Below, piece by piece: positions 1,929 to 53,313 of a stretch of 64,000 nt of DNA. Numbering within the stretch: position 1 is the first letter of the stretch; each line of letters opens with the position of its first letter. Below the pieces are notes generated by a model that was not told the origin of the DNA, made no database searches, and saw nothing but the letters and a program-made list of their open reading frames with translations. The stretch covers positions 11,791 through 75,790 of the IMG/VR virus record IMGVR_UViG_3300042549_007551. One strand, given 5' to 3'. Origin of the DNA: a virus. The position numbers and the translations under genes are program-made.

Positions 1929-2037
1929 AACTAAACTCTTTATTGGGGTAGTCGGGTAAGACAATCTATAAACCTTATGGGCTAAAGATTGTAACGTGGG
2001 TTCAACTCCCACCTACTCCACCAAAGAGTTTAGTTAG
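1927..2037. repeat. 15-bp perfect inverted repeat bracketing the tRNA-like gene
   Basis: ctaactaaactcttt (1927-1941) / aaagagtttagttag (2023-2037). Confidence 0.9.
1945..2023 (+). ncRNA. tRNA-like RNA resembling the isolated tRNA-like domain (TLD) of tmRNA, with Ala identity
   Basis: Acceptor stem GGGGTAG/CTACTCC with G3-U70, discriminator A, encoded CCA; T arm GTGGG-TTCAACT-CCCAC; 9-nt stemless D region; 7-bp ACAATCT/AGATTGT stem closing an 18-nt non-anticodon loop. Confidence 0.75.
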
Positions 2038-2133: not shown

Positions 2134-5100
2134 TTAACGGAGTGCAACACGACTACGTCTATACCGTACATACTGACGCCACTTTGTATTCTTAACTAAA
2201 CTATAAGGATTAACTCTAGGCTTACGCATAGTTCCGTACTTAGTAAACCAGTCTCTATAAATATTTTCATACTTAGCCCAACGTCCATTGCTACCATAAA
2301 GATAACGATAACGTTTCGGTGTGTACTTTTCATAATCAGGTACAGTATACAAAGGTAATATGCCTGAACTTAATGGAATGATTGGGTTTTTATTCTTAGA
2401 AACAAACGGAGCTAAAGGACCTTGTGTTAACTGTTCTCTTACAGGTAACTTATTAAGTACGTTACTAATAGGACCTGCAATAGCTAACTGTCTTATGCTT
2501 TGTAAAACATCTTTTGTTTCTAAAAACTTAGACAAACCTCTTAATAAAGGACGTTGTCTATCTAATAACGAACGACCTGGATCACTTAGTAATTTTTGTA
2601 CATCAAACAAACCAAACCCAAGACGTATACCAACACCATTATATATACGTAACCAACCGTTTTGCATTTCAAATAATTCAAATGGACTGTATTCTCCATC
2701 ATCATCTGTGTATTGTCCATACACACCGTCAATAATATCACTCAATAATACAGACATTCTTGGATCTAATATACGATCAATCCAGTTTGTTAAGGAACGA
2801 ACAGGGAAAGATAAATAAGGTATGTCTGCAAGTAACTGCATTTCTAAAGGACTTCTTAATCCGTAATTAAAAAATCGTTTAAGAGAAGAGTTAACAGCTT
2901 CTTGGAAAGTGTAACCTCTTAACTGTCTGTCTAATAAGTAACCTGCAATACGACCTACGTTTTCTATGTTAGCGTTTAAATCAGAGTAAGTATATTTATA
3001 ACCTTTATGAACTAAACCTAATAAACCTTTATTAAATAAACCATTCTTTTCTTTTTCTATTTCATCATAAACTTCTTTAAAGGTTCTTGTTTCAGTATCA
3101 TTGAAATCATTTAACTTTCTTTCTTCTACAATATTTCTTAAGTACTCAAAAGTTTCTTGTCTATATACGTCTACTTGTGCGTTTGTTTGCATGAAAGCAC
3201 TGACTTCAAACAATATCTTTTTAAGATCTTCATAGTCAGCAGAGTACACAGGTTGACCGTTGCTATCTAAAGTAGTTTTATATTTTTCTAAACGTTTATT
3301 AATACGTTGACGATAAAGATTTGTTTCTCCTGGATTAAACTTTAATGAATCGTACAATGTAAAATATTCTGCGAACCTTGTGTCCCCTAAAAAAGCTACT
3401 GATTCTTGAAGAGCAATATTATATGTAATATTTTTTAAAGCTTTTACATTTTTAAATTTAGAAGTAACTTTGATATTATCTAAATCTTTTATATCTTTAA
3501 CACCAATAACAACGTTTAAAATATAATTACCAATACCTTCTAAACGTTGACTAATTTCTTTTGCTTTAATTAAACGAGTTTCTATTCTTTTTTTAACATC
3601 TTCTTTTTTAATAGCTTCTGCACCGTCAATATAATTTTTTAATCTATCTTTTATAATATAAAAGTTTTCTGTGATCGTTAAAACTTCTTCATTTGTTACG
3701 TTATCTTTCTTTAAAAGTAACGATAACATCTTATCATATGCAGTTTTAACTTCTAATAAACTTAATAAACGTTCTTCAGATACATCTTTATAAATGTTAT
3801 AAACATCGTGAGTCAACCCCATGATTCTAACGATTTGTTTTCTATTTTTAAATGCACCGAAAACACCAAAGTCTTTATAGAGTTCACTATATAATTGAGT
3901 CCATGTATCTAAATAGTTTCTCATAATAAACCCATAGTTAAATCTCATTAATAACTTTTCAAGGTACTGTAACTGTGCTAATATGTTTGACCAACCACCT
4001 TTAAATCTAAATGGTTTATAAGCTTGGTTATACAAACTCATTAATGAATCGATTGTTACAAATCCAAATTGTAAATTAACACCTTCATCAGCTTGATATT
4101 TTTTAATAAGATTAAATATTTTTTCTAAATCTTTCCAACTTCTAACATCAATTTGTTTAGTAGTTAAAGATAAATCTTCTTTAAAATTAATATTATCTAA
4201 ATCTACACTAGTATATTCTTTACCATTAAAAATAATTGAATTAACTTTTTTATCTTTAGGGTCATTTAATTGTTTGACATATGATTCTATTTCATCAAAG
4301 CTATTAAATCTTACTTTATCTCTATGCTTCGCCGCCCCTATGAACTGTTGCCAACGTGTTTTCTTTTCCCATTCTGGGTCGTTTTTTCTAAACAAATCAC
4401 CAACACGTTTTATTAAACCTTCAGAAGCGTAACCATCTTTTACCACAACTAGTCTAATAAAATTAGAATTACGTTTAACATGTTCATACATTGTTTTAAA
4501 ATCGTATACTTCTTTTTTAGTTTTGTTACCATTTTGGTCTACAACAATAATGTCTTTTTTATACATACTTGCTAACGTAATAAAAGGAACAACTGATTTA
4601 TCAATGTTCATTAAATTAGTATGTTTAATTCTTTCAACATCTTGTTTACTTAAAGTTTCTTCATCACCCATGATTCTAGGTATACCTTGCTTTAATAAAT
4701 CCATGCTTTCGCCTTCAGGAGTATGTAATAAAAACATACCTTGAGCAAACTTACGTGAGAATATTTTAGATATAACTGCTAGTTTAATATCACGTCTTCT
4801 CTTTTCTAACTCTAATAATTTCTTGTTAAAATAATCTAAGGTATCTTGTTTGCTAAGATCTTTGACTTCATCAATAGCTAACTTTACTTTATTTTCTTCG
4901 TTTGATTTTTGTAATATAAGATTACCTAATGTTTTTATTCTAATTTCTTTACGTTTTATTTCATCGTTTTTACTACGAAGATTATTGTCAGCCACATTTA
5001 TTTCTTTTATGTATCTTTCAATACGATTAAATGATAATTCTTTATTCAATAAACGAATTGCAATATCATTAACAGTCGTTTTATCAACAGTTTTATTTCT

Positions 5101-8100
5101 GCTGTTATATATTTTTTGTTTGTCTTCTGTTACTATTTTAAATTCTTTAAATGCGCTAATAAGAACATCTATTAAACTATCAATAGTTACTACGTCTCGT
5201 AAAGATTCTAAGTCTTGGTCTTTTATAAACTCTAAAGCAGTTAATCTTTCTAAGTCGCTGGCATTAGTTTGTTCTGAACCAAGCGCTTTGCTATAACTAT
5301 TACCATACGGTTCTAATAATTCACTTGCAATAATACTTGCTTGTTCTTTTAAGGTAGATACAGTTGCACTGTTTTGACTTTTATTTAAACGTTGTGTAAC
5401 GTTGCCACTTTCAATATCAATGTTAACGTAGTTAGCATCTACTTCTCTTGAGCTTAAAAAGAAATCTTTACTTGCTTGATACTTCTTATCTAGGTTTAAA
5501 CGTAACTCTTCTTTGGCATTATAACCATTAAACTCAAGTAATAACTTATATAAGTAAAATGTTTTATTTAACCACGATATTTCTTTACGATCAATTCTAT
5601 CATTTGATTCAGTACCACTGCTATAGCGTGCGTTAATTTCGTTATACGTATTATTTGCCACATTAAACAACCTTAAGATTCTATAAGCAGGCATTTTTAT
5701 AGCAACTAATTCACCTAAGAAAGCATTAACAGTACCTGTTACACCGTTAATAGTTACTTCCGTATCTAATGATTCTTCTAAAGCACCTTTGTTTTTGTAG
5801 AAAACAATTGCAACTTCTTTAATAATATTAAAATAATAAGTTGAAATTTCATCAGGTATTTTTGAATCAGGGAATAATTCTTTCTTAGCATATTGATTTA
5901 TAACTGTAGTAATATCATCAATTGCTTTACTTTTTCTAGTGTAGCTTTGTGCTATTTGTACGTTTTTACTTTCTTCATTGTTGTCAATTTCTTTTTCTAA
6001 TTCTAAATTTCTTATTGATAAATTATTTGTTTCAATAGGATCACTATCTAATCCAATTGCCAAAGCGTTTTCATGTGCTTCATCTAAACCAATCGTTACT
6101 TTTCTTACACTTAATTTATCTACATTTTCTTTAACACGTTTTTTAAAGTCTCTTAAGAATTTAGTAACATCCATTCTTAAAGCACCGTGCTTTGCAATAC
6201 CAATAATAATTGTAGCATCGTTAGATTGTTTTCCTAAAATACCACGATCTATAATAACTTGATCTAAGTAATCACTACTATAGATATCAGCCATTGTACT
6301 AATGGTTGGTTTCTTTTTATCGTTAGTAACTTTATCGTTATCTTTGATTGCTTTTTTAAACTTTTTAACGTCTGCGTTATTTCTTCCAAAGTAAAATAAA
6401 TGTAAATACATTTCTTCTACTTCATTTAATTTAGTTTGTTCCATATTTCTTTTAACTAAGTCTCTGTATTTTTCTATTAAAGAACGATAAAAAGGATTTA
6501 GTATATCATCTTCTTTATTAGCAGGCTTTTGATAGTACTTATCAAAGTGTTTTACAATAGCACCCAATTTATATTCTGATTTTAAAGCAAACCCAAATGA
6601 AGACATCTCTTGTCTAACTAATAAAGATAAATAATTCTTATCAAAAATTAAACCTAAGATTTCATCAACACTTTCTTTAAAGTATTCTTTGTATTTAGCA
6701 GCATCTTCTTTATCGATATATACTTTTTTATCTTTATCATAAGCAACTTCTTTAAACCAACTATCATAAATAGTTTCGTTTAACTTTCCTTTAACTTTAC
6801 TAATAAAAACTTTCTTGTCTTTTTCTAGTTTATTTTTTCGGTCAGTAACATTTAAACTTAAATCAGATTCAATATTAATATCGTTAAGTATTCCTTTTAA
6901 ATTTGTTGCGCTTAATATTTTATCTGAGAGTGATCTTATTGTTACAACACCTAAGTTAGATTTAAAAGCGTGCCAAGCATTTCCTGTTTGATCTTTATTC
7001 ATACCTAAGAAAGGACTTATAATACTTGTTACGTTTTGTATTTTTCTTAAACCACCAAATACACCGATACCGTTTTTAGATGCTTGGAAACGTGTAATAG
7101 TTTCAATCAAACTTTGAGTATGTAATATTCTTAAAAACAATTTATAAATAATTTCTTTATCTTTTTCGTTTTTTCTTTTGAAAATAGTTTCAACTTTATT
7201 TTCTTTTATATATTGTTTATCTTCTAAACTAAAATGTTTTTCAATAACTTCATCATTAACTAATACTAAATCTTCTTTAGTCATGTACTTTGTAACATTG
7301 TATTTGTTGTTCTTGATGCTTTGATCAAACAAATAGTTTCTAGCTGCAATTTTATAAAGCGTTTCGTTTGTTTCTAATATTTTATTGACCGCATCTTTTG
7401 AATCATATTCTTTTAATTCAAAACCTTCGTATGCGTTTTCATTATATACTTCACGAATTGCTACGTTTAAAAAATACTTTTTAGCTGCGTCATCATTTTC
7501 CCAACCAACAACTTTTGGTATTTCTATTTCGCTAATATCCTTTTTAATACCGGCAAAAATAGTTCCATATAATTCTCCAAAAGAATATGAGGTTCTAATA
7601 GGTGTGCCACTTGCTCCTTTAAACACAGCTTTACCAACACTTGTTGCCTCAGTACTAATGACATCGGTTCTTCCGTTGCTTTTTACATTAGTAAGTAATT
7701 CTTTTCTTACACTTTCTAAGTATCCTTTTTCTTTCTTCTTAACGTTATTAATAGAATCCCAGCTCCAGAATCCTTCATCATAATAACTTTCTTTAGTAGC
7801 ATCATTCTTAAAGAATAAACCTTTATTAAATTGTTCATTGTTTAAAGCTATCATACCGATGGTATCACCGTCGTTATCAGCACCCATCATTTTATACATG
7901 TAAGGATTTGCTTCAATAGTTTCATTAGTATGATACCCAACAATCTTTACTGTAGGTGTAGACTTAGCGTCTTGGATAGGCCAACGTGCAGCTAATACCC
8001 AACCAAACTTAATACCTTTATTATTTGTTACAAATTTTACTGTATATGTTTTACTATCAACAACATACATTTTGTTTTCTTTGCCACTTATATTGTCGTT

Positions 8101-11100
8101 TGTTATCCCAGATTTATTTAAGTGAATAATAAAATCTTCTAGTTCTTGTTTAGAAGATAATTTAACTTCGTCTTTGTTATTAACAATAGATACGCTGTTG
8201 TTTTTATAATTTAAAGCAGTATTTATATTAAAACCATTTATTATTTTTGACCAAGAAGCGTCATCAATTCTGTCTATTTGCAGCCAATCCTTATTCTTGC
8301 TTAGTTCTTCCCATCCTTGTCTTGAAGTTCTTAGTTGGCCTAACATTAAATCAGTGTTAGCTAATAATTGTTGTCTAATACCAGGGTGTTTTCTATAAGT
8401 ATAAGAAACAATAGCACCTGTATTTCCAGTTAAAAATTCGCTAGCTCTATTCATAGCTTTTAAGTTTATTTTAGGTAAGATAATTGTTTCTAATTTTAAT
8501 CTTGTTTCTTGATTGCTTGTTCTTATAGAGAAGTTTTTATATGTTAAGTAATTAATAACTTCATCTACCATTGGTGTGTTGGTTTCTAAACTAATTTTTT
8601 TAGCCATAGCTTCAATGTCATAAGTACCGTTTGATTTTTTAATAGAATACTTTTCAATGAAAGGAAGTAACCCGTTGTTTTGTATTTCACTAAACACTTC
8701 AATTTCGTTTCTATCTTTTTGATCTAACAATACTTTCCAATTCACACCTTGTGCTTCTAATATTGCTGAAAAGGATGGAGTTATTGGTACACCACCGATG
8801 ATGCTACCTTTAATATCCCGTTCAGCAATGGATATATTTTCTTCTTCAATCAATCTAGTTCTAACATTCATTTTTTCTGCAGTATGTTCTGCATCTAAAA
8901 TGACATATATTTCACCGCGTTGAATATCAATTCCTTTAAAGTTTAAAGTATTAATATCTCCGTTACTTAAAATATTGTTAACAATTAAATCATCTTTAAT
9001 AACATCATATATAATGTCATTCCATACTGAATGGCCATCTGATGCTTTACCAAAAATACCGTCTAATATTTTTGCGTAATCTTTAGCAGCATCTAATATG
9101 ATCTTACCTTCTCTAATTTTAAACGTATCTTTTAATTCTTTTTCTTTACTTCTTAATACACTTAAGTTGTTTTTTGTTAAACCATACTTCTTTAGTAACG
9201 CGTTATCTGCAATATTTTTATAACCATCACCTTGTAATTCATCATTAACTAAATACATTCTAACTGCGTTTAAAGTTTGTTCTAATACTGCTCCACCTGC
9301 ACCACGCTTAACTAAAGATTCTTTGTTAGCGACAATATCAACGCCAAACTTTTCTTTTAAACCAACTACATAACGTATGCCACCCTTAAAACCCCACATC
9401 CCTAACCAAGTTTTATTACCTTCATCCATTCCTACAGCTTTAGCATACTCAGCATCAATTAACAAAGCGTCTTCAAAAGCACCTGGATGATTAATAAACC
9501 CAACAATAGTATTAACACCTATCTTATGTAAGATATCTCGCTTATAAAATTGATATTGTTTTTCTGTTAAATAGTTAGGTGTAAAGATATTAATAACTTT
9601 ATCTTTACCATTCTTATCTTTATAGGTTCTTAATAATCTACTAGTAATGATTTCTTTTTCTTTTGGATCAGCGATACTATCAATAAACTTACCTAAGTTG
9701 TCTTCAATAGTTGTAGCGTTTAACTTATTTAAATCTTCGTATTCGTAATAATCATTAATAATCTTATAAGGAGTATACTCTAAATAAAGTTTATTAAACG
9801 ATAATACAATACGCCCTGGGTTTGTATTTAATGTATGAGGCATATCAACATTAAGTGCTGTTAAAGGTGGGTTAGATTTACCAGCTGAACCTTCTGCAGA
9901 TTTTTCTAAATCTAAACTTAAACGCACTACATTTTTTCTAGTCCATATAATTAAAGGACTTGTTGAGTACTGTGGATCAACTAAAAATAATAATTTTGCA
10001 GGGTCATTAGCTTTAAACTTTGATAATATTCTGTCAGCAATACCTCGGTATACCTTAACAATGTCTGAATCTTTTTCGTTACGTTTCGCGCTTTGATAAG
10101 TATCATAATATCTAAAGAATCTTTGCTTTAATACCGTTGTCATATTAATACGTTCTAATGCGCTGTCTGGTATAGCATCATCAAATACTACAGATTCTCT
10201 AAACGCTGCTATTTCCTTTGCTTTAATTGCTTTATCTGTTTCGTCTTGGGTGTATTCAAACAAACCATCTTTTTGATGTTTAGCTGCTAGTTTAATAGTT
10301 TTTTCAATACTGTTATAGCTAGCGTCTATTCCATCTTCTAAGTAAATAGCTTCTTTATTTAAACCTGAAAAACCTAACTTACGTTTTCCACTCTTATCCG
10401 TATAGTTAAAGAACTTAGTTTTTAACCAGCCTTCCATGTCTTCATTAGGCTTGGGTCTATAAACAATGTCTTTAGTTTTAACTTCTAAAATTTTACCTAC
10501 TTCAACATAAGTATATCTAAATTTAAATGTTGGCATACCACCGCCAGTAGTAAACTGATAATAGTTATATATGTTATTTTGATTATCCATATAACCAACT
10601 AAATAAAAATTATCAGATGGAGATTTAGCAAGAGCTATATCGTCCTTTACAATTAAAGCTTCTTTATCTAAACCACGATGAGCATCTTTATATACACGTT
10701 TAACATTTTTAACGCCTAGTTTGTTTATAAACGATTGCTCTTCTCTTTCAGTTGCTACTCGTTGTAAACCATCAAGACGTTCATCTGGTGTAAAGTTATT
10801 AATATTTTCTTCGTTTCCGTTTAAAACTGTAAAAATATTGCTTCTTTCAAATTCTGTTTTAATACGTTCTGTATTTCTTAAGACAGAAATAACTTCTAAA
10901 AATTTATTAGTAATAACTTCGTTATTAATTTCTGTATTGTTTTTTGGTACGCCAATCTTTAAATCATTTAAAAAACTAATGTTACTGTTTACATAGTCTA
11001 GTTCTTTTTTTAAAGCCAATGTAATAAGTGTTCTTAAATTAAACTTGTCTATGTTTTTAAGTATCTTTTTTTCTTCTTCAATAACACTTATTAATCCTCT

Positions 11101-14100
11101 AGCACCTTTTTCTTTACTAAGTAAAGATACTAATGAAGCGTATGTTGTATTATCTTTTAGTTCATTTTGTTTACTTACAAGAATACTTAAGGCTTCATTA
11201 AACTTAATATTTAAATCAGTATCACTTGCTTTTAAATTACTTAACACAGGTTTAAAACTAGTTCCTAGTAAAGATTTACCTACAGTATTCCAAGCATCTT
11301 CTACTGTTTTTAATTTAATGTCTGCATCTTTTTTAAGTCCGGCTACAATTTCTTTAATCTTTTCTTCTATTTTAGCATCAATAATATTTCTGCCGTTTTC
11401 AATACCGGTAGTAAGTTTAACTAATTTACTTTGTCTTTCGTTAAATTCTTTTAATAACTTATTCTTTTCTTCATTTGTTTTTATTTTTATAATACTAGGA
11501 TCAACCATTCTACTTAAAACATCTTTAACTTTTTGAGAGTTTAAATCTATTTTTTGGTCAGCATCTGCAGGAATCAGTGTTAATAAAATTTCCATTTCTT
11601 CTAAAGTTTTATTTAATAACTTTAAGTTTTCATCTATTTCAAATTTTAACAAACCAAAATCAACACTGTTTGTTCTTATGTATTTAAATCTTTTCTTAGC
11701 ATTTTCTAACTGATTGTTTAAAACATTTTGTATACGATAAGATGTGTTGCTACGAATGTTTTTAATTTTGTCAGCAGCTTTTTTTATAATATTTTTTAAG
11801 TCATCGGTTCCTACTTTAGCAGTAACTATTTCTTTTTTTAAATTTTCAACTTCACTAATTATTTGATTTCTTTCTTTGATCAAAGCGTCTTGTGTAGCTT
11901 TAAGTTCAAGTACTTTTTCTTTATGTGATTTAACAGAAGATAAATTAACGTAAGCAATAAATTTTTTAATTTGTTCTATTTGTTTTTCTACACTGTACAA
12001 AGCTTCGTTATATTCAAAATCATTTAATTGGGTATCTTTAATACCTAGTTCTTTTTTAACAGCTTTTCTTATTGCCATACCTGTACTGGCAATAGATACA
12101 CCTTGATCTTCTTTTAAAACGCCATCTTCTAAATAGTTATTGTATTCAAGTTCTGTGTCTTTTAGTAAAGCATCTGCGTACTTTTCAATATTTTTACTTT
12201 CATCTGTGGTATGTCTTAACTTCCAACCTTCAATAAAGTAAGCAACTAACATATCTTTTAGTCTAGCTTTTTCAGCAGGATCTTTAGTACTGATGTACTC
12301 TAATACAATATTTGTAACTGATTTAATTTGTGAATTGTTTCCCGTAAATAAAGCTTCTTTAAGTTTTACATTAACTGTAATACCTAGTTTCTCTTCAATT
12401 TCTTTCATTAATTTTGTTACAATAATCGAACCTATTTCTTGGTTAAACCTAGTCATCGCTGTTATATCAGCATCGGTTAAAGCAATACCTTTATTAACTT
12501 TGTTTAATATGTTATTAATTTCTTTTTTATTTGCTTCAATAAGTTTTACTTCTTCGCCTTTATCTACAGCATCTTCTACACTTAAAAGATTTAAACGTTC
12601 TCTAACAGCTTTAGGATCGTTTTGTCTTATTAATTGATAGTATAAATTTGTCTTTAATGTTTTAGATAGTTTAAAAATAAACTCATTATAGTTTACAAAG
12701 TCAAAACGTTTACCGTTGTGTGCAACAATAGGTACTGTGTTAGGTAAAGCATTGATTTCAGAAACAAACAAGCGTATAAATTCAATGTCATTAGGTAAAC
12801 CGGCAATATTTTTTATGGTTAAATCAATACGTTTAGTATAGTCATCTAATTCATTTTTAGTTAAGTTGTTATTAATATATTCTTCTAACGCTTTAGCATC
12901 CCAATATTTTTTCTTATTAATATCTGCCCATGCTTTAAAGCCTGCGCTTTCTTTAACATACATTTTAACTTGTTGATCATAGAATCCTTCAAGTTCATCT
13001 GACTTAGTAATAGTTTTAACACCATTTGAATCTATTGTTTCTTCAATACCGTCTATAAAAATACGGTTTGTCATAAATTGGTTTAAAACATTAAACATTA
13101 ACTTACCTTTTACACGTGTAACATTTAAGATTGTTAATTGATAAGGGGTTCTTCTTCCACTTTTTTCTGTAATAGTTTCCATGTCTAACACAACAAAACG
13201 ATCAGGTATATTTTTACCACTTAATTCAATTTGTTTCATGTAGTTAAAGAAGGTAACGATGTTATCAACAACAGCGTTGTGTAAGTTTATACCTTTTTCA
13301 CCATCAATATTAGTGCTTTCAATTAAATCAAGTAATGCTTGTTTACCACCTTGATAGTAGTTTCCTGCTTCAGTAATAATACTATCTAACAGTGCTTCTC
13401 TGCTAACATCTTCTTTTATCTTATAGTTATTTCTATAAGTATCTAAGTTACTATTACCGTAAGGTTTGTTTTTCTTAGCTTCAAGTAAAAGATTATCATG
13501 TCTTAACTTTATAGGTGCACTTTCTTCTTCTAATAAATCAATTCTTTTATTTAGTTTAGAAATCTTATCAGGATTTACAACTGTGTACGTATTGATTGAG
13601 TCACGTCTATTTTTAAGAGTAGATAGTTCTGCATTTAATTGTTCTTTACTTTTAATTAAAATATCTTCTTCATCATTAAAAGCTTTTACTTCATTACTTA
13701 ATAAATAAGAAACAACTTCATCTTCTTTAACTAAACTAATTCCATCTTTTGCAACACGCTTAACAATGTTCTTAATAACATCTTCTGGTTTTTGATTCCC
13801 ATATTTATTTATGTTTTCTAAAGCAGTTTCAGCACTCTTAATGTTTTCTAAAGTAGTTTTAATATTACTTTTTAATTTCTTTAAATTGTAAATTAACTTT
13901 GAGAGGTCTGTATTTTTACTATTAATAATAATGTTATTTACACTAGTAGAAAATTCTTCTCTTAAAGTTTCTAATTGATCTAATGTGTATTCTTCTTTTT
14001 CATCTTTTAAAATCTGTAAAGACTTTGTTTTTAATTTTAAATTAAATCCACTTGATTTAAAATAAGTTGTGTCTTCTTCATTTATCTTATAGATAAGATT

Positions 14101-17100
14101 TTTTAAACGCTTATATAGTTCTTCACTCTTAAGCGTATACAAAACTTTATATTTATTTGTTTCTTTTTTAACTGTTTCTTTTGTAAGATCTTTCTTTTTT
14201 ATGTTTAATTTTTTAAATTTGTAGTCTAAAGCTATTTGTATGTAAGTTGCAACCATAAACTTTTTAAAAACATTAGTATATTTTCTATCATGTGGTTTGT
14301 AATCAACACCAGTTAACTTGCTATCTTGTAATTCTTTGACCTTGTTATCAATTTCTTCTTCATAATTTTTAAAGTCTTCAAATTCATACGTAAAAATAAA
14401 TTCATTTTCTAATTCCTGTAAGATGTACTTAGCTTTGTCTAAGTATTTATTTTTTCCTTTAACTAAAGAAGCGGTAGCTTCTTCATTTAATACAAGTTTA
14501 TTTAAATCTTGTTGTTCTTTTTTAACAAGTTCTTTTGTAGCTTCTTTTATACCACTAAAATAAACTGTTCTAATATTATTTAGATAGTATTTTACAGAAG
14601 CAATCTTACGTTCTTTAGCGCTTTGTGTATCTTCATCTAAGTAACCTTCATTAACGATGTATTGGTTAATGTTATCTATTCTTTTTTTATTTTTTTCTTC
14701 AATGTTTAAAACAATCTTAGTAAACTTTTTCCATGAATTAGTTTTAATCTTACTGTCTTTAGGACCGGTAGATAAAGTTTGTTCTAAAGCATCAATATCA
14801 TCTAATTTTTTATTAGCATTTAATATGAAATCTTTATATCCAGCTGCATTTGTAATATTGATTTTATATTTCTTTAATATTAAAATAGATTTACTGTTAT
14901 ATAAATTTTGTAATTTCTTTTTACGTATGTTCTTAAAAGCTATATACTCGTTTGTTTTAAAATAAGTTTTTTCTGCCTCAAGTTCAATTAATATTTTTTC
15001 TCTTTCTTGAAAAAATTCTTTAGGTATAAACGCTTTAACTTTTTCTAAAGCTTGTTTGTTTTCTTTTTCAGCCTTATCTAAAACAGTTAACCAATAGTCA
15101 TTAAATTCTTTCATTAAACCAGGATTGTTATTATAAATATCAATTAATAATTTTTCTTTATATGCTGCGTTTTTATCTTTTAATACTTCTATGCTGTTGT
15201 TAATACCACTAACAGCTTCTTCTAGTTTACTAATAGCTTTATTTAAACTAGACATGTTCTTATTAATTATTGTGTTTTCATTGATATCAAAATTATAGTT
15301 TAACTTAAACCCTCTTTGGCTAGCGTTAACAACTTTTAACTCTTTCTTTAATTCATCAATTGTATCTTTAATACTTAACCAAGTAGTAATAGTAGGCAAT
15401 TGTTTTAGTGCCATCTCACTGTTTGCAGCCATACCAAGCTCAACAGTATCATAAACATTACGTGTACTTGCATCTAGTTTTAAACTACTTTCTAAAACAT
15501 TAACAAGGTTTTCTATTTTTTCAATACGATCTTCTGCTTCTTTACGTTCTGATTTTGACATGTTGTTTAAAACAGATTCAGGATAAATTAACTTTAATAA
15601 TTTTTTAACACCGTGAACACTCTCAATATTGGTAGCAATTTCTGATAGTTTTAATAATTGATTACTAATATTAGCTTCTTGTATATCCATTAACCCTTGT
15701 AAAACAAGTTTTTCACGGTCTTTAATACCTTCTTGTGTCTTTAATTCAAACTTTTGTACAAGGATATAACCCATAATTGCTTTTACTTGCTCAATGTTAA
15801 CGCCTATTAAATAACCGCGGCTGTTAAAATACTTAACAATATCTTTTAATGCTTCTTCTATTTCAATAACTTTCTTAGGATCGTTAATTGTTTTAACATA
15901 TCTTTCAAAATCTTTTTTATAAAGAGTAATATATTTTTTATCTTGTTCTAAAACTAATAAAGCACTACCTATTTCTTTCATCTTAACAAAGTCGTACTTA
16001 TCTACACCGCCTTTTAATAAACTTAATACATTTGTATATCGTGTCATTAAGTTTAAATAAACACTGTCTGGGTTTCTAGTGGATACTTTATCAATTGTTT
16101 CTGCATAGTCTTCATTAATAGAGTGAAAGCTAAAATCAGCCAGTGTTTGTTCTATAACTTGTGCCATAGTACTTTGATAAGAAGGATCTGTATTAGGTTT
16201 AAACACAGCACTAAAAGCATTTCTTGTTGCTTCTCTAGTAATCTTATTAATATTATTTGGCGTAGTCATTAACAACTGTGGCTTAACAGTTACATTAGTA
16301 TCAGGTGTATCTTTTTCTTTTAAAACAATAATGTCTAGTCTATCGTTAATGCCTTTAACATAAGAACCTGCATTACTTAAATGACTTACACTATTAAATA
16401 TAGATCGTAAAATACTGTTTTCAAATGGGTCATCTTGTTGTTTAGTTTCAAAAATATTTAAAGCTTCAAGTTTTTTAATACGTCTAATGTTCTTTTTAGC
16501 TGCACCAATTCTAAATTTATTAACTGCATCTTGCCAAGACCATTGTTGTTTAAACTCATTGTTAATAAACTGTGTTTTAGCAAAGTTAATAATGTTTACA
16601 AAAGCAAACATGTTATCGTTTTTGCTTATGGTGTTATACAACACATCCATGATTTCATCTAATGTATTGTATTTTGTAAATAAATTTTCAACAGTTTCAA
16701 AATCAATACCTAAAGAATTAAATAATTTCTTAGATAAACTAATTCTTTTTTCTTTTTCATTGTGAGTATGACGTATAACGTTACCTTTATAGTCTTTAAA
16801 CCCAAATAAATATTCGTATAAGTATACTTTAAATTTTTTATTATCATCTAATAAAGGTAAATTTATTAAATTGTAAACTTCAAAAGGACTTTCAAATTTG
16901 TTTTCTTTTTTATTTCTTAATAAGTAAGACATAACTTTAAAGACATTATCGTCAATAGGACCTAATCTAGTCTTACCGCTTTCTTGTTTATACTTGTTTA
17001 AATCTATTTTAAATTGTTTAGCGACAGTTTCTATCGTTGCGTTTTCTTTCTTTAATCCACCATAAAACATAATGTTAATAAAAAGCTCAGTCATATTTCT

Positions 17101-20100
17101 TGCTTCTTTATCTTTAATGCTGTCTAAGTATTCTGAAGCACTGCCAAAGTTTTTAATAAAAGTTGGTTTAATAATTGCTTTACCGGAGGTGTCTCCAAAG
17201 AATACGTCTTCTGCTTTGTTAACAATACTTTCTATGGTTTCTTTAACTACGTTATTAAAAGCAGAAGGAGTTGTTTGCGTTATATTATCAAGAATAACGT
17301 CAGTAATATTAACACCATTTTCTTCTCTAAAATCTTCTTTTGGTTTTTTATACCAGTTCTTTACATTATCTTTATCTTGAATTCTTAAATCTTTAATCAT
17401 ACTTTCTAACGTAACAGTACTCTTTGGATCTTTTTCAAGCATCTTTTTATAGCTTAAAGAAGCATTAATTTGTAAATAAATTTCGTTTGTTTTATTAGCA
17501 TGTAAAGAAATATTGTTTATGTATTTGTTTAATGTTGTTTTTAAAACATCTTTTTTAATGCTATTAATTTCTGCGTCACTAACTGTTTTAATGTTGTCAT
17601 CAAACATAGTACTATATTTCTTTATATAATTTAAAATTGCATTAACTTGAGGGTTATTTGTTTTAACATCGGTTATTAATTCTGCTAAAGTCATGTCATC
17701 TGGTAACTCAAGTACGCTTTTTAATTGATTAAAGTAAGTATTAATTGTATTTTTAATAGCAATTTTAATACTTAAGTAGTCTTCATTTTTAAATTTATTA
17801 AAAATAGAATCATCTATATTTAAATAAGAAGCCAGACCAATTAAAGTTTTATCATCCATACGATCAATATCAAAAGTACTAGGTAAGTTTTTTATTACGT
17901 AAAATAAGTTAGTCCAGTTTAAATTTGTAGCAGTGCCTCTAACCCTAGCGTTATTTGCTTTAGTAGATTCTTTATACAAAGCTCTACTACGTCTTAGCTG
18001 TGCTGCTAAAACGCTTTCTAATGATACACCTTCAGTTTGTTTGCTGTTAAATTCTTCTTTTAATTCATTGATAAGATTTAACATTCCAACTTTTTGTGCA
18101 TTAAACAAACCTTTGTTGTATTCTTTTTTACCGTTAACTAAAACAAATGTTTTGTTTTCTGAGTGCTTTAAAATATTATTTCTGGTGGACATTTCTTTAG
18201 CAGTAATAAAACCTTCAAGCCCTGAACCAAAATAATCTTGTAACTTTTTAATAAGTTTTTTGTAATAAATATTATGGGTGTACTTTAAAGAAGATACAAA
18301 ACTATATGCAACGTCTTTTAATTGTTCTATTGTTTTTAAAAACTCTTTATTATAGATATCGTTATAGTTATTAAAAGTAATATCTTCGTTCTTATATTCT
18401 TTTTGCATAACAATAAGCGCATTTTTAATAGCATCTAATAGTGTTATTTTAATATCAGGTCCTATGTTAGTTGCATTTATTTTTATCTCTGTTAACTGTT
18501 CATATAAACGATAATTTTCTCTTCTTAAATCAGATTCAAAATTATTAAAGTTATAATTTTCTTTAATGTAACGATCAGTAAAAAAGTTTCGTCCAATAAC
18601 ATCTATATCAAAAGAACCAAAATCATTGTATAAAAGTTCTAAAAATCTAGCAAAGGCTTTTTCTTTTCTAGCTAGTCTTACAACCCTTTTAAACAAATTG
18701 GTTTGGTTAAAATTAATATTAACAACATCACCAGGTTCTACAATAGTGTATTCTTTTTTTATTCTGGCAAACTCAGTCAACTTTTTAACAAGGTCTTCTC
18801 TGCTTAACTTTAATCTATCAGCTAACTTTTGTAGGTTTTCAACATCTTTTAAGAACCCACCTAAGATACCACCTTGTCCACTTCTTGAAGTTGAGCTCTT
18901 AATATTTATATAGTTAGATTTTAACTCTCCATTTATATTTCCGTTTTTATCTTTAGTAATAACGTAATCAAAAGTATTAATATATTTCTTAGTCCTTCTC
19001 ATTTCTAATATATCTTTGTGTTGTTCCTCAGTCATGAAGTAAATATTTTTATCTTTAGAGGTTTTATCTTTTAGAGCAAATTTTACAAGGTTATTAAATT
19101 CTGAAAAAGCCGTTTCAAGATTGTCTTTGCTAACAATAATAACTGCACCAGTTTCACTGATGTCTCTTAAAGTTAAAACATAAGGATCGTATCCTTTTTC
19201 TTTTAAAACTTTAGCTATTTTTTTACTTCCTTCTGTATGTAATTCAGTATTGTGTTTGCTTATAATTTTCTCACCAATCTCAGAGTTATAGTTAGGTAAT
19301 CCTTTTACACCTGATTCATCAATATTTGAGTTGCCATTACCATCATAGTGTTCTACCACCATGTATTCTTTTGTCGCAGGATCATAAGCAATAGCAATAT
19401 TACTATCATCAGAAGTACTTCTGTTGTTATAAAACATTGTTTCAACTTTTTCAGGGTTATCAACTATGTATTTATAAAAAGCATTAAAGTCTTCTTCTAA
19501 TGCTTTATCTTTGATATTGTTTCTAAAGTTTTCATACGCATTAATACGTCTTTGAATATCGATAACTTCATTTTCTAAATCACTAATTTGGTCTTTAATG
19601 TTTTTACTCTTACTATCTTTTCTATTTTTTAATAAAGCTATACGGTTGTTTTGTCTTAACACAACGCCATTAAGTTCTTCTATTTTGTTTAATGTAGCTA
19701 CACCTTTTCCTACAGTACCTTGATAAAAGAAAACCTTTTTAACTAATAGTTCTTTGGTTTCTTGTGGTATATCTTTTGCATCTAACACATACAAAATAAA
19801 TAGTATGTCACTACTTACAGGTTTATTAATTGTTTTACCGTTTATAACAACAGTTGTTTCTGGTTTTTTAAATTCTGTATTAGCTTTTTCTAAATAGTAA
19901 AATATCTCTGGTTTTAAAACTAATTGTATATTACTATAACGATTTTTTCTTTTTAAAAATTTAGGGTCTGCAGATTCATATTGAGTTTCTAAGAACAGTA
20001 AAGTGTTTAAACTTCCGTATGCATTAATGAAATTAATATCATTAACTAAAGCATATTCTTCATCTGTTCCTTTAAACAACTCTCTGCTAATTGTTAACGG

Positions 20101-23100
20101 TGCGGTTACAATACTACTTCCAAATTTTTTAACGGCGTCTTGGTATTCATTTAATAGTTTATTACCAAGTTCACTAGCTGTTTCAGGTGTTAACGTACCT
20201 TTAGCAACTGTATTTGTTTTTAAACGATCAATAATACTAGACACAATTCTTATGTTTACATGGTGTGTTAGTAAGTATTCTAATAAGTAAACTTTTCTAG
20301 ATACTTTATTTTTGTCATTTTTAATATAAATAACTATTTGTTTATCTTCAAAAGCAAAGTAATCTAACTCTTTAAAATCAACTTCTTTTTTAAATGCTTT
20401 ATCAGTTTCGATAAAGCTGTTTAAAAAGTAAACAACTTGCATTAATCCGCTCTTTAAATTAAATGCTGGTTTAATACTATTTTCATCTTCATAGTTTCCA
20501 AACGTTTGAAAGTTAGAGAAAGTAATAATATCATCTAATAAATCTTTATGTTTATCGTCACTAATAGAAAGTGCTTTGTACACACTTGTACTTAAAGTAT
20601 AGTGCCGATCACTAGATGCTCTGATATCTTTTATTTCTGTAGCACGTATACCTTTATCAATAATATTTTTTAGATAACGATGTTTATTATTAAAGGCATA
20701 CAAATCTTGCAGTTTAATAGTCATTATCTTTAGAGCATTGCCAGCTATTAATTTATATACATCAGCAGTAATTGATTTATCCCCGCTAATTAACTTTTCA
20801 ATAAAGTCTTTTAAATAATCTTTATCATACTCAATATTATTTTCATCAAAATAATTACGTATAGATTCATTAACAGATTGATAGTAAATACGGTTTAATC
20901 GTTTTTGTTCCTTACCATCTAAAGGTAGTTTAATATCAATATCTTCTTCTTTGTTATAAAGATCACCTAAAAGTCTTATCTTATAGCTGTCACTCTTAAA
21001 CGTTTCACCACGTTTACTAAATACTTTGACCTTCTTACCTTCTTTAGAGTTGGATAAAGTATCCCAATCTATTGTAATTACTTTTTCTTTATCTAAACGA
21101 ACAAGTTCTTTTAAAACTTTTTCTAAAAAATAATAGTGCCCAGAGGATGTTCTTTTTAATCCCTTTAAAGTTTCTTTATAACTTTTTGCATCGTCTATTG
21201 TTTCACTGTCACTATTTATAAACATCGCCATTCTAAAATTAAACCTTAATTCTTTAATATTTAAAACACTAAAACCACCGGCTAGTATTTTCTTTAAAGC
21301 ATTGTAAGGATTGTTTTTATCTTTTTCAATATCACTTGTACTTAATTTAAATAATAAATTAGTTAATAAAGATTGAGGTATATTTTCTAGTTGTTTTACA
21401 ATCGTGCTTTGAACACTTAATGTACTACTAACTGCTTTTTTAATTGTATTCTTTTTAGCTTCTTCTTGTTTTCTAATTTCCTTAGTTTCAATCAACTCTT
21501 CAATCATCGTGTCGTACTCAGTTAAAAATTCTTTATCACTAAGCACTTCATCTTTTTGTAAGATGTATTCACTTTCAACAACATTGCTTTCTCTTTCTTC
21601 TAAAAATTTAATGAAAGCTGTATCAATGCTATTAAGTTTACTAACAGCATCTGGTATAGATAGCTTGTTCCAATTTTTTAATTCGTCTTCTGTTATGAAA
21701 TCAGGGAGTAATTCTTTCTTTGCTTCGTCACTTAAAAATAAATTAATATCTTTGTTAACATTAATACTGTTATAGTAATACGATTTAACATATGAATACA
21801 TTTCATTGTATTGTAAAAAGTTATTAATACGTCTTAATTCTTGATCTAAAATATCTTTAATAGCTTTCTTATCTGCTTTATTTTTTTCTGAATCAGAATC
21901 AAGAACCTTAGTTATTTTTTCAATTTGTTTATCTGCACGTTCAAATAATTTATTTACTGTATCTAACTTTTGTTTAAACAAACCATTCTTTTGATTTAAT
22001 AACTTATAAAAAACTATTTCTTTTAACTCTGTTAAGCTTACATCTTCAACACTTCTAAAGGTAGGTTTATTTTTGTTTTCAATAACTTTATTGATTGCTT
22101 CAACAACACCTAAAAGACCTCCGAAACTTTTAACTTTATCTGCTGATATATAACTATCTAACTCTAACTTTTTTATAATTCTAATTAATGTGTTTATTTT
22201 AGCAGCAGTCGTTTGTTTGTCCCAGTTTTTTTCGATGTCATCAGCATCAAAGTTTATTAATCCTTTTAATAATAAAGTAGTTTCAAATCCATCTGGAAGT
22301 AAGTTATAAATTAAACTAACGATATCTTGTTCAATTGTTTTAACAAAAGAAATTTGTACATCAACTACTTTCTTTTTTCTATTACTAGGAGTAATTGTTT
22401 TTAAAGTAGCTCTTTCTATTTCGTTGCCGTCTTTATCAACTAAAGCTACCTTAATTCCATATTGATTAGCTAGATCAACTAATGCATCACCTTCGTCACC
22501 TTCAATAAACTCATCAATAGCACGTTGTTTATTATACGTATTACGTTGTACATCTTCATCTTTTTTAGGATTGTTCTTAATAATTTCTAACTTATCTTTT
22601 AATGTTTTAATTGTTGTAGCTTTTTTATCTTGTGCATTTTGTATTTTAGTAATGCTGGTTTCTAAAGCAATAATTTCCTCAGACGCTTTTAGTTTTTCTT
22701 CTCCAGTAGCTTTAACATTTTTAGTAATCTTTAAAAGTTTATTAACTTGTTTTTTTAAATCAACTTTTTCTTTTTCTAATTCTTTATTTTCTTCTTGTAA
22801 AGTAGCAAGTTCTTCATTAATAACTAAACTACTTTTAATAAAAACAGTTTCATTAGAAAATATTTTAAAACCATTAATTACTTTTAAAACGTTAAACAAA
22901 CTTTGTTGTGCAACGGTAGTTAATTCATTTACATGTACAAGACCAGCGTCCATAAGAACAAATACTTGACTCAAAACTTTACGGTGTTTAGTAATATACG
23001 TATAGTTTAATAAAGCATTTCTTTTTGCTACATATTCAAGCGTAACTTTATCATTACCTTTTTGTCCGGCTTTTACAACGGCGTCTAAATCAGGTCCTGC

Positions 23101-28723: not shown

Positions 28724-28948
28724 ATAAGCCTCCTTGTTTTTGTTAGAGCTCGCGTAACAACTTATCGTATGCAGATCCGCTTTTAATAAAAAACGCCAGA
28801 AGGATAGCATTAAATAACATAACTTAAAATGGTTATATTACTTCACTACTCATTCTGGCGTAAGCATCCATGTATAAATTGCCGAGTTTTACACACTTCG
28901 ATCTGGACACTAAAGTAGTCCGCTACTATCTACGCATATAATATAACA
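28724..28948 (-). promoter_or_regulatory. promoter plus structured 5' leader with a long hairpin and U-tract upstream of the capsid gene
   Basis: TGTTATATT (28940-28948); hairpin 28793-28861 followed by T6. Confidence 0.6.
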
Positions 28949-39329: not shown

Positions 39330-39772
39330 ACGATTTCTCCTTTCTCTTCTATCTCTTTAATAACAGCAGCTAAACGTAATTGTTCATCAATTAACTTTTG
39401 TTTTTCATCTAAAAGAGCTTGTTTTAAAACACGTATTTCTTCTTCAAGCTTGTATAAGTAGTCTTCAATATTAGGACGAATAGGCTTCTGTCCTAATATC
39501 TGATAAACATTATACGGCAAATTAGAAACATATGTACGCACAATATGATTGTTGTCATCTAATAACTCTACTTTAACATTTATAATTTGTTGTTCTAGAG
39601 AAATATAAATGTACTCTTTATTACCTCTAAATAATTTTTCATTAAGATACAACACAGGATGCAAGTGCTGTGTGTTTGGTTCAAAAACATACTCAACATA
39701 TGTACGTTCAACCAATTCAGGCACATACATTGTTTCAATAAGTACCTTTCCGTCTATTAATTTTAATATCAT
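39326..39772 (-). CDS. hypothetical structural-region protein
   Basis: Translationally coupled at both ends; C-terminal coiled coil. Confidence 0.65.
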   Translation of the reverse strand: MILKLIDGKVLIETMYVPELVERTYVEYVFEPNTQHLHPVLYLNEKLFRGNKEYIYISLEQQIINVKVELLDDNNHIVRTYVSNLPYNVYQILGQKPIRPNIEDYLYKLEEEIRVLKQALLDEKQKLIDEQLRLAAVIKEIEEKGEIV

Positions 39773-52858: not shown

Positions 52859-53313
52859 TACTTCTTACCTTCTTTTGTTTTAATAGCCTTTTCAATAGTA
52901 GGTCCATCCATAATTTCACTAATAGTTCTAGCAATCGCATCCCCTTGCTTTTGAGTACTATTAATAATAGCTTCTTCTAGTTCTTTATCACGAATATTTT
53001 GTTGTTTGATTTGTTCTTTTAAAGCTTGTTCATTTAACTCTGCTTGTTCTTCTTCAGGATTTTCGCCCATAACACCACCGTGTTTTGCAAGATTAATAAT
53101 ATCTTGGATTTTTTCAGGAAGGTCTCCATCGTTATCAGGAGTTCTGTCTGCTTTATTAATTGTAGCTTTACTTCGGGATATACGCGCCGAGCGGTTTGTT
53201 GAAATCTTCTTCGGGTCTTTCATCATTTTCGTCATATACACTAGTTGCATATACTGGCCCACTGCTACCAGGATAAGTAAGATTACTGCCAAAGCTGTTA
53301 GAATTTCCATCAT
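52858..53313 (-). CDS. N-terminally membrane-anchored protein between TerL and portal
   Basis: TM helix ILTALAVILLILVAVG; RBS AAGGAG inside TerL; overlaps TerL by 146 nt. Confidence 0.65.
   Translation of the reverse strand: MMEILTALAVILLILVAVGQYMQLVYMTKMMKDPKKISTNRSARISRSKATINKADRTPDNDGDLPEKIQDIINLAKHGGVMGENPEEEQAELNEQALKEQIKQQNIRDKELEEAIINSTQKQGDAIARTISEIMDGPTIEKAIKTKEGKK

What the first reader, a model, noticed from the sequence alone, without database searches (positions are those of the whole stretch)
9400..9480. The polymerase lacks the flap and zinc-binding modules yet keeps cellular-like beta motifs
Only about 20 aa separate the ED dyad (5593-5594) from the first barrel Lys (5613), versus about 250 aa (flap and inserted domains) in bacterial beta. 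No Cys are available for beta' zinc sites. Downstream KNGIGVFGG and IIIGIAKHG (nt ~6185-6210) loosely recall the G-I-G and D..K.G elements of YonO/QDE-1-type enzymes rather than the cellular bridge helix and trigger loop. Inference: a sigma-independent architecture intermediate between multisubunit RNAPs and single-chain viral or RNAi polymerases.
Basis: partly seen in the sequence, partly recalled or inferred. Interest (0 to 1): 0.7.

Follow-up and report, generated by a model that had tools for sequence, protein, structure and literature searches.

The report
Flapless single-chain RNA polymerase in giant phage protein
An 8,038-residue, cysteine-free protein of an uncultured short-tailed phage hides a single-chain RNA polymerase with both catalytic barrels of cellular polymerases. 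It lacks the flap and zinc modules they use to bind initiation factors, which makes it a new and unusually cell-like member of the phage-carried polymerases.

Summary
Window 9400-9480 (minus strand) encodes residues 5591-5617 of one 8,038-aa ORF (2134-26250). E5593-D5594 lie 19 aa before K5613; the E. coli beta equivalents (E813/D814 and K1065) are 251 aa apart. The protein has no cysteine at all.

All eight residues invariant in two-barrel RNA polymerases are present and conserved in 35 non-redundant relatives. These relatives come only from metagenomes and are 5,094-7,919 aa where complete.

An AlphaFold model (pLDDT 68) matches beta/Rpb2-type subunits over residues 5526-5795 (Z 10-12). It matches beta'/Rpb1-type subunits over 5866-6181 (Z 12-13; E. 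coli beta' rmsd 2.2 Å over 112 residues). QDE-1 covers both barrels in one chain (Z 11.6).

Pfam, PHROGs, PDB sequences, 50,697 GenBank phages and 185,579 prokaryote genomes give no sequence hit.

A second model (pLDDT 79) puts them in a 47-residue helix and at the tip of a helical hairpin, the geometry expected of a bridge helix and trigger loop. Fold searches did not confirm this.

Most likely this is a virion-carried, sigma-independent early-gene polymerase. I class it as a new family within a known kind (crAss gp66, P23-45 gp96). Other first-stage notes of this scan flagged the same ORF.

The parts
2134..26250 (-). Giant ORF: 8,038 aa, no Cys, 26-28% GC. It is the last gene of the minus-strand virion-gene block.
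9295..9528 (-). Beta-like double-psi barrel (aa 5575-5652), compact, with no flap insert.
   Evidence: model 1 secondary structure; VIA matches to beta/Rpb2-type chains Z 10.3-12.4; hhalign against flapless beta
9469..9474 (-). E5593-D5594, equivalent to E. coli beta E813-D814 (second-metal ligands).
   Evidence: D invariant, E present in 26 of 32 relatives
9385..9414 (-). K5613 (GNKTW) to K5622 (GFKG), equivalent to beta K1065 and K1073.
8884..8934 (-). GEIYVILDAEH block (aa 5773-5789, H5789). By eye it parallels beta GYMYMLKLNH (H1237 region).
   Evidence: family consensus and E. coli sequence, aligned by eye; hhalign did not recover it
8356..8388 (-). HPGIRQQLLAN (aa 5955-5965). In the profile alignment it is paired with beta' GRFRQNLLGKR (residues about 337-347); the structural match to beta' starts just after, at residue 345.
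   Evidence: hhalign alignment, not significant on its own; E. coli beta' 345-491 superposes on aa 5952-6158 at rmsd 2.2 Å over 112 residues, Z 12.5
7831..8013 (-). Beta'-like double-psi barrel (aa 6080-6140) with R6089-x-P6091-x-Q.
7864..7878 (-). DNDGD (D6125, D6127, D6129), the catalytic metal triad. It starts 36 aa after R6089 in every relative.
7027..7167 (-). 47-residue helix (aa 6362-6408) carrying R...SKxG....GGxRK. Bridge-helix candidate.
   Evidence: model 2, pLDDT 73-89 here; invariant residues; one weak superposition reaching beta' 793
6112..6246 (-). Helical hairpin (aa 6669-6713) with invariant K6687-H6688 at the tip. Trigger-loop candidate.
   Evidence: model 2; invariant columns R465, I479, K483, H484

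Best explanation
Residues of about 5440-6760 of the 8,038-aa protein form a single-chain DNA-dependent RNA polymerase of the two-barrel (double-psi beta-barrel) superfamily.

The beta-like barrel supplies E5593/D5594, K5613 and K5622. The beta'-like barrel, about 530 aa downstream, supplies R6089, P6091 and the DNDGD metal triad. Together they would form the usual two-metal active site.

The enzyme lacks the flap insert of the beta barrel and has no cysteine-based zinc module. These are two of the parts that cellular polymerases use to hold sigma/TFIIB and to control pausing. It should therefore start transcription without a host-type initiation factor.

Inferred, not shown:
- The giant protein is made late and packed into the capsid.
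- It is ejected through the short tail with the DNA. Having no Cys would ease unfolded passage and refolding, and a conserved Gly/Ala-rich hydrophobic N-terminal part may act in envelope crossing.
- Its polymerase module then transcribes the phage's early genes.
- It may be cut into pieces after assembly.
For: Fold:
- Model 1 (aa 5520-6710, pLDDT 68.2). The top 50 Foldseek PDB matches are all largest subunits of multisubunit RNAPs (best E 3e-5).
- VIA-align gives beta/Rpb2-type chains on fragment 7-276: ASFV RPB2 Z 12.4 (rmsd 3.8 Å, 174 aa), AR9 beta-C Z 11.3 (20% id), phiKZ Z 10.3.
- It gives beta'/Rpb1-type chains on 347-662: Z 12.2-12.3, and vaccinia Rpo147 Z 11.8 at rmsd 2.3 Å.
- Single chains cover both barrels: QDE-1 Z 11.6 (219 aa), P74 gp62 10.2, P23-45 gp96 9.8, crAss gp66 6.4. 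Non-polymerase barrels reach at most Z 8.6 over at most 98 aa.
- E. coli beta' 345-491 superposes at rmsd 2.2 Å.

Residues:
- All eight superfamily-invariant residues named in PMC2919709 are present and conserved in 35 relatives of 17-60% identity.

Context:
- The gene closes the minus-strand block of terminase (53168-55039), SU10/P22-like portal (51122-52858), tail proteins and a capsid-like gene (26729-28810).
- The same convergent layout appears in relatives.
- Virion genes are also Cys-poor.
- No sigma factor or second polymerase was found in the 75.8-kb record.

Precedents:
- crAss gp66 and its fused polyproteins (10.1101/2020.03.07.982082).
- P23-45 tape-measure-fused gp96 (PMC10770324).
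Against: - No sequence method links the protein to any polymerase. Pfam, PHROGs and PDB phmmer/hmmsearch give nothing.
- Whole-length hhalign against E. coli rpoB, rpoC or YonO is not significant.
- Both models rest on shallow alignments (12 and 27 rows). Relative domain placement in model 1 is unreliable (pTM 0.52).
- The part downstream of the beta' barrel has no polymerase-specific fold match, so a bridge helix and trigger loop are not demonstrated.
- Packaging, ejection, template and promoter use are untested.
- The record is only 77% complete by CheckV, so a sigma-like factor or a second polymerase could lie in the missing part.
Confidence: 0.6

Rival explanations
1. It is a real two-barrel RNA polymerase but is not packaged. 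The giant protein would work inside the infected cell as a non-virion transcription (or transcription plus RNA/DNA processing) factory for middle or late genes.
For: No proteomic evidence exists. The chain also carries conserved DEDD-exonuclease-like motifs at about aa 4350-4520. The gene abuts the replication module.
Against: The gene sits on the strand and at the end of the virion-gene block. A polymerase needed to express late genes would then be made late itself. Total Cys avoidance and the hydrophobic Gly/Ala-rich conserved N-terminal part fit ejected proteins.
Confidence: 0.15
2. It is an ordinary member of the flapless YonO / RdRP / NCgl1702-like clade. The cellular-looking beta motifs would then be retained ancestral residues and not a sign of an intermediate position.
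For: - Absence of the flap insert is stated to typify RdRPs, YonO and NCgl1702-like enzymes (PMC7824862).
- DNDGD is also the YonO motif (supplement of PMC10770324).
- The beta'-barrel profile aligns to YonO at the right place with P 0.018, better than to E. coli beta'.
- QDE-1 is the best single-chain structural match (Z 11.6).
Against: - The beta-barrel profile finds nothing in YonO (P 0.25, wrong place) but does find E. coli beta.
- E of the ED pair is present, whereas YonO and RdRPs are reported to lack it (PMC2919709).
- Foldseek ranks only multisubunit-type largest subunits in its top 50.
- crAss gp66 is a weak match (Z 6.4).
Confidence: 0.3
3. The two-barrel module is not a DNA-dependent RNA polymerase. 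It could be an RNA-dependent polymerase or primase, a PolD-like DNA polymerase, or an inactive structural relic.
For: QDE-1 and plant RDR2 appear among the matches, as does PolD (Z 7.5). No biochemical data exist.
Against: All catalytic residues are invariant over 35 divergent sequences, which argues against a relic. PolD and RDR2 score 4-5 Z units below the DNA-dependent enzymes. The phage has its own family A DNA polymerase and DnaG-like primase.
Confidence: 0.05

Closest known systems
Cellular and jumbo-phage/NCLDV multisubunit RNA polymerases (beta/Rpb2 plus beta'/Rpb1)
   Same: - Best structural matches for each barrel (Z 10-13).
- Shared beta motifs: GxNxxVxF...ED, GxK...GxKG, VDIVxN...R.
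- Shared beta' motifs: RxPxx...DxDGD with 35-36 aa spacing.
- Fifth carboxylate present.
   Different: - Both barrels lie in one chain.
- No flap (SBHM) insert in the beta barrel, which is present even in jumbo-phage enzymes (PMC7824862).
- No Cys, hence no zinc ribbon or second zinc site.
- Downstream domains are not recognisable.
- Embedded in an 8,038-aa protein.
YonO of Bacillus prophage SPbeta (839 aa)
   Same: Single chain, no flap, DNDGD triad, RSPxx before it. It is a factor-independent DNA-dependent RNAP (PMC5467207).
   Different: - YonO has 14 Cys.
- It is reported to lack the E of the ED pair (PMC2919709).
- It shows no similarity to this family's beta barrel.
- It is not part of a giant protein.
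Virion RNA polymerase gp66 of crAss-like phage phi14:2 (PDB 6VR4), and fused polyproteins of other crAss-like phages
   Same: A single-chain two-barrel polymerase carried in the virion of a short-tailed phage. In some phages it is fused with neighbours into a huge protein.
   Different: - Weak structural match (Z 6.4; BFVD E 3e-3).
- The crAss family profile carries motifs such as DFDID (supplement of PMC10770324), against DNDGD here.
- No PHROG hit.
- This phage's terminase and capsid are nearest to Paenibacillus podophage API480, not Crassvirales.
P23-45 gp96, RNA polymerase fused to a 5,002-aa tail tape measure protein (PDB 8H2M/8H2N)
   Same: A two-barrel polymerase module inside a giant virion protein that must pass through the tail. 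Z 8.8-9.8.
   Different: In P23-45 the polymerase is N-terminal, in a siphovirus tape measure. Here it sits in the last third of a podovirus protein. There is no sequence similarity.
N4 virion RNA polymerase gp50 (about 3,500 aa)
   Same: A giant ejected polymerase of a podovirus with a genome of about 70 kb. This is a functional analogy.
   Different: N4 gp50 has a T7-like (palm) polymerase fold, which is unrelated to two-barrel enzymes.
NCgl1702-like beta::beta' fusions of mobile elements (2,169 aa)
   Same: Described as a flapless beta::beta' fusion in which only about 40 residues are conserved (PMC2919709, PMC7824862).
   Different: Not compared here, because no sequence was available to the tools.

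Membership tests
Two-barrel (double-psi beta-barrel) RNA polymerase superfamily | Eight invariant residues: three Asp of DxDxD, R and P upstream in the same barrel, one Asp and two Lys in the other barrel (PMC2919709). | tested here: met
   D6125/D6127/D6129, R6089, P6091, D5594, K5613 and K5622 are invariant in 35 relatives.
Two-barrel (double-psi beta-barrel) RNA polymerase superfamily | Two double-psi beta-barrel folds facing one active site. | tested here: met
   Predicted model only. Both barrels match polymerase barrels at Z 10-13, and QDE-1 covers both at Z 11.6. Their mutual geometry was not checkable because no coordinates were available.
Cellular-type multisubunit RNAP clade (including jumbo-phage, NCLDV and killer-plasmid enzymes) | SBHM 'flap/wall' domain inserted in the beta barrel (PMC7824862). 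| tested here: not met
   19 aa between D and the first Lys in all 32 members with this region, against 251 in E. coli. The model shows a compact barrel.
Cellular-type multisubunit RNAP clade (including jumbo-phage, NCLDV and killer-plasmid enzymes) | Fifth carboxylate (E of the ED pair; Rpb2 E836). | tested here: met
   ED in 26 of 32 members including this one; QD or LD in one subclade.
Cellular-type multisubunit RNAP clade (including jumbo-phage, NCLDV and killer-plasmid enzymes) | Cys4 zinc sites of beta' (C70/72/85/88 and C814/888/895/898 in E. coli). | tested here: not met
   0 Cys in the whole protein. Relatives have 0-8 Cys and no CxxC in the 1,600-aa module.
Cellular-type multisubunit RNAP clade (including jumbo-phage, NCLDV and killer-plasmid enzymes) | Recognisable bridge helix and trigger loop. 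| tested here: inconclusive
   Candidates are a 47-aa helix with GGxRK and a hairpin with K-H at the tip. No polymerase-specific fold match was found for this part. One poor superposition reaches beta' 793 (rmsd 10 Å).
YonO / eukaryotic RdRP (QDE-1) clade | Single chain with a flapless beta-like barrel. | tested here: met
YonO / eukaryotic RdRP (QDE-1) clade | Lacks the fifth carboxylate (PMC2919709). | tested here: not met
   E5593 is present and conserved in most members.
YonO / eukaryotic RdRP (QDE-1) clade | Detectable profile similarity to YonO. | tested here: inconclusive
   The beta'-barrel profile hits YonO 486-544 with P 0.018. The beta-barrel profile finds nothing. The whole-length comparison is not significant.
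crAss-like virion RNAP (gp66 family) | Sequence or profile membership, and close structural similarity to 6VR4. | tested here: inconclusive
   No PHROG hit. Z 6.4 to 6VR4 over 229 aa. BFVD E 3e-3, prob 0.35.
Virion-packaged (ejected) phage RNA polymerases as a functional class | The protein is present in virions and active at the start of infection. | not testable with these tools
   Only indirect support: position in the virion-gene block and Cys avoidance.

The most novel reading that the evidence does not exclude
This family would be a separate deep lineage of two-barrel polymerases. It would branch between the cellular/jumbo-phage clade (ED pair, cellular beta motifs, beta' region C and D motifs) and the flapless YonO/RdRP clade. 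It would then preserve what a beta-beta' core looked like before the flap and zinc modules were added, or show that these can be lost entirely. If so, a minimal, cell-like, factor-independent active site would be available for experiment.
Probability: 0.2. Interest if true: 0.8.

Novelty: new variant of a known kind. Interest (0 to 1): 0.62.

Why it matters
Polymerases carried in phage particles let a virus start its programme without the host enzyme. Only a few kinds are known: N4, crAss gp66, the jumbo-phage multisubunit sets and P23-45 gp96.

This family has at least 35 non-redundant members, all from metagenomes, with none in GenBank phages or prokaryote genomes. It adds a kind that sequence methods cannot see, inside one of the longest phage proteins on record; the gene takes up about 32% of the 75.8-kb record.

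Its beta-like barrel is close enough to the cellular one to align motif by motif. It nevertheless lacks the flap and zinc parts. That makes it a natural test of which parts of the universal polymerase core are needed for catalysis and which for regulation. It also bears on how the multisubunit and single-chain branches are related.

Tried and rejected
- Pfam and PHROGs on the whole protein and on seven pieces: nothing useful.
- Pfam at E<=10 on nine family members: no polymerase family.
- PDB sequence search with the fragment, with a 9-row profile and with two short barrel profiles: nothing.
- tblastn of the fragment against 50,697 GenBank phages: nothing.
- Scan of 185,579 prokaryote genomes: no relative, so no prophage or host clue.
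- ESM Atlas on aa 6201-7050: no usable hit.
- Whole-length hhalign against single E. coli rpoB, rpoC and YonO sequences: not significant. Only the short barrel profiles gave a signal.
- hhalign of the SKxG..GGxRK and AKH blocks against beta': nothing. The best, non-significant pairing of YLxQxIID was with the bridge-helix stretch GYLTRRLVD, P 0.66.
- L-INS-i realignment timed out.
- HExxH protease motifs in the giant protein: none.
- crAss-like affiliation was considered and set aside. Terminase and capsid are nearest to Paenibacillus podophage API480 (31% and 27% identity).
- NCgl1702, QDE-1, gp66 and gp96 could not be compared by sequence because I had no reference sequences for them.
Full report
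**What is at the coordinates**

The window holds one open frame of 8,038 codons on the minus strand (2134..26250). Window 9400-9480 encodes residues 5591-5617. E5593-D5594 are nt 9469-9474 and K5613 is nt 9412-9414.
- DNDGD at 6125-6129 (nt 7864-7878)
- KNGIGVFGG at 6392-6400 (nt 7051-7077)
- IIIGIAKHG at 6681-6689 (nt 6184-6210)

The protein has no cysteine. TGT/TGC occur 92 and 423 times in the other two frames of the same DNA. At the Cys rate of the phage's other ORFs (0.36%), zero in 8,038 has P of about 3e-13.

I read E. coli rpoB and rpoC from NC_000913.3. The spacing is therefore 251 aa in beta against 19 aa here.

**The family**

A search of 5.8 billion clustered proteins found 13 relatives of 5,094-7,919 aa. 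An exhaustive phmmer search of 1.84 billion representatives found 27, all the same family or fragments of it. Six IMG/VR and 16 metagenome loci were added.

After removing duplicates, 35 sequences remain, with 17-60% identity in the polymerase part. In every one that covers the region:
- DNDGD is intact.
- RxPxQ starts 36 aa before it (35 in E. coli beta').
- The Asp of the ED pair and both Lys are kept.
- The Asp-to-Lys spacing is 19 and Lys-to-Lys is 8-10.

E is replaced by Q or L in one subclade (6 of 32). The 1,600-aa polymerase module holds 0-8 Cys and never a CxxC pair. So the missing flap and missing zinc sites are family traits and not a quirk of this sequence.

The family has no hit in Pfam, PHROGs, PDB sequences, 50,697 GenBank phage records or 185,579 prokaryote genomes.

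**Fold of the two barrels**

AlphaFold2 on aa 5520-6710 with a 12-row alignment gave pLDDT 68.2 and pTM 0.52.

Foldseek against the PDB returned only largest subunits of multisubunit polymerases in its top 50. These include Pol I A190 (E 3e-5), archaeal A' and the AR9 non-virion enzyme. Against predicted viral structures it returned giant-virus and jumbo-phage subunits first, and crAss gp66 at E 3e-3.

VIA-align against 48,161 PDB representatives split the model into two matched parts.

| Model part | Best matches |
|---|---|
| Fragment 7-276 (aa 5526-5795) | ASFV RPB2 Z 12.4 (rmsd 3.8 Å, 174 aa); AR9 beta C-half Z 11.3 (20% id); Pol I A135 Z 11.2; plastid beta Z 10.5; phiKZ Z 10.3; Xanthomonas beta Z 10.3 |
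| Fragment 347-662 (aa 5866-6181) | Pol I, Pol II and archaeal largest subunits Z 12.2-12.3; vaccinia Rpo147 Z 11.8 (rmsd 2.3 Å, 113 aa) |
| Both barrels, single chains | QDE-1 Z 11.6 (219 aa); P74 gp62 10.2; P23-45 gp96 9.8; PolD 7.5; RDR2 7.2; crAss gp66 6.4 |

Barrels of unrelated proteins (Cdc48-type N domains and designed barrels) stop at Z 8.6 with at most 98 aligned residues.

A second look at Foldseek's list gave E. coli beta' 345-491 on aa 5952-6158 at rmsd 2.2 Å over 112 residues (Z 12.5, 19% id).

The beta-like barrel in the model is compact. Its strands are at fragment 59-66, 76-80, 94-97, 103-109 and 120-122, with nothing inserted where the flap sits in cellular enzymes.

**Sequence support for 'cellular-like'**

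- A 22-sequence profile of aa 5564-5654 finds its best local match in the 1,342-aa E. coli beta exactly at 794-824, the GQNMRVAFMPWNGYNFED stretch (P 0.0015).
- Against beta with residues 833-1055 cut out, it aligns 77 columns through GDK, GNKG, VDIV and the SR arginine (P 5.7e-5).
- A 13-sequence profile scores 22.3 against the same construct, versus 11.2 +/- 2.3 for 100 shuffles, none of which reach it.
- The same profile finds nothing in YonO.
- The beta'-barrel profile is weak against beta' (2 of 100 shuffles reach it). It is slightly better against YonO at the correct place (P 0.018).
- By eye, HPGIRQQLLAN parallels beta' GRFRQNLLGKR, and GEIYVILDAEH parallels beta GYMYMLKLNH. The first pairing appeared in a non-significant alignment. 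The second was not recovered.

According to Ruprich-Robert and Thuriaux (PMC2919709), eight residues are invariant across the superfamily. A fifth carboxylate (Rpb2 E836) is present in nearly all members except RdRPs and YonO-like proteins. This family has all eight and, in most members, the fifth.

According to Iyer et al. (PMC7824862), the flap is an SBHM domain inserted in the beta barrel of all cellular, killer-plasmid and jumbo-phage enzymes. It is absent from RdRPs, YonO and NCgl1702-like enzymes.

The family therefore combines a trait of each group. I could not place the family in a tree.

**The downstream motifs**

In model 1 both motifs fell in low-confidence stretches. I therefore modelled aa 6205-7050 alone with 27 rows (pLDDT 79, pTM 0.59). 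This part is entirely helical.
- The invariant R...SKxG....GGxRK lies inside one 47-residue helix (aa 6362-6408).
- The invariant K-H ends a helix (aa 6669-6688) that turns back into a second helix (6695-6713).
- These pack with a third long helix (6514-6557). VIA-align sees this part only as a generic three-helix bundle (Z at most 7.9).
- Foldseek finds nothing below E 0.1.

A long helix starting with GGxRK (compare GARKG in beta', GGREG in Rpb1) and a hairpin with a basic residue and His at its tip are what a bridge helix and trigger loop look like. One poor superposition of E. coli beta' runs to residue 793 in the bridge helix (rmsd 10 Å).

This is a lead and not a demonstration. YonO is reported to have no trigger-loop homology (PMC5467207).

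**Context and likely role**

The window is bases 11791-75790 of a 75,790-nt linear IMG/VR record that CheckV rates 77% complete.
- The plus-strand part encodes a DprA-like protein, an AAA ATPase, a DnaG-like primase, an SNF2 helicase, a family A DNA polymerase and an AAA_24 protein.
- The minus-strand block runs from terminase (53168-55039) and an SU10/P22-like portal (51122-52858), through RCC1-repeat and fibre-like tail proteins, to a capsid-like gene (26729-28810). It ends with the giant gene.
- Relatives show the same convergent layout.
- Terminase and capsid are nearest to Paenibacillus podophage API480 (31% and 27% identity), not to crAss-like phages.
- Virion genes here are nearly Cys-free too.
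- No sigma factor or second polymerase was detected.

Together with the precedents of crAss gp66 and its fused polyproteins (10.1101/2020.03.07.982082) and P23-45 gp96 (PMC10770324), the best reading is a virion-carried, ejected polymerase for early genes. The fold and catalytic residues are shown. Packaging, ejection, processing and promoter use are inferred.

**Verdict**

This is a new, sequence-invisible family of single-chain two-barrel polymerases inside a giant phage protein, so I class it as a new variant of a known kind. Other first-stage notes of this scan flagged the same ORF. I tested their motif claims here and found them accurate.

Noticed in passing
window 1945-2023 (+): Just downstream of the giant gene's stop, Rfam's tmRNA model (RF00023) matches 79 nt. 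The match spans model positions 1-374, so only the tRNA-like ends are present and there is no tag region. Score 38.5 bits (gathering 47), E 9e-14. ARAGORN reports no tRNA or tmRNA in the window.
   Followed up: partly
window about 12690-13210 (-), aa about 4350-4520: Family-conserved VxDMET and PIxxHNGxxFD blocks resemble ExoI and ExoII of DEDD 3'-5' exonucleases. Pfam finds nothing, even at E<=5, on aa 4300-4600.
   Followed up: partly
window 2134-26250 versus the rest: The giant gene is 26-28% GC, while the other genes of the record are 33-40% GC.
   Followed up: no
window 26321-50274 (-): The whole virion-gene block is very poor in cysteine (about 0.1%; many proteins have none). The replication-side ORFs reach 1-4%.
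   Followed up: partly
window 2137-3000 and 24300-25200 (-), aa 7750-8038 and 350-650: The last 290 residues and a Gly/Ala-rich hydrophobic N-terminal stretch are the best-conserved parts of the giant protein. The distance from DNDGD to the C-terminus is nearly fixed across relatives (1,783-1,919 aa).
   Followed up: no
L025:about 3887-4063, L026:about 1347-1565: Two short metagenome contigs encode a different Cys-free large protein. It carries HRDPAIQ...DADNDGDTLG with only 293 aa after the motif. It may be another undescribed two-barrel polymerase family.
   Followed up: no
window 39769-45507 and 45500-46831 (-): A 1,912-aa tail-block protein with a lamin-tail domain and RCC1 repeats, followed by a 443-aa protein with BspA-type leucine-rich repeats. 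These are likely host-binding parts.
   Followed up: no
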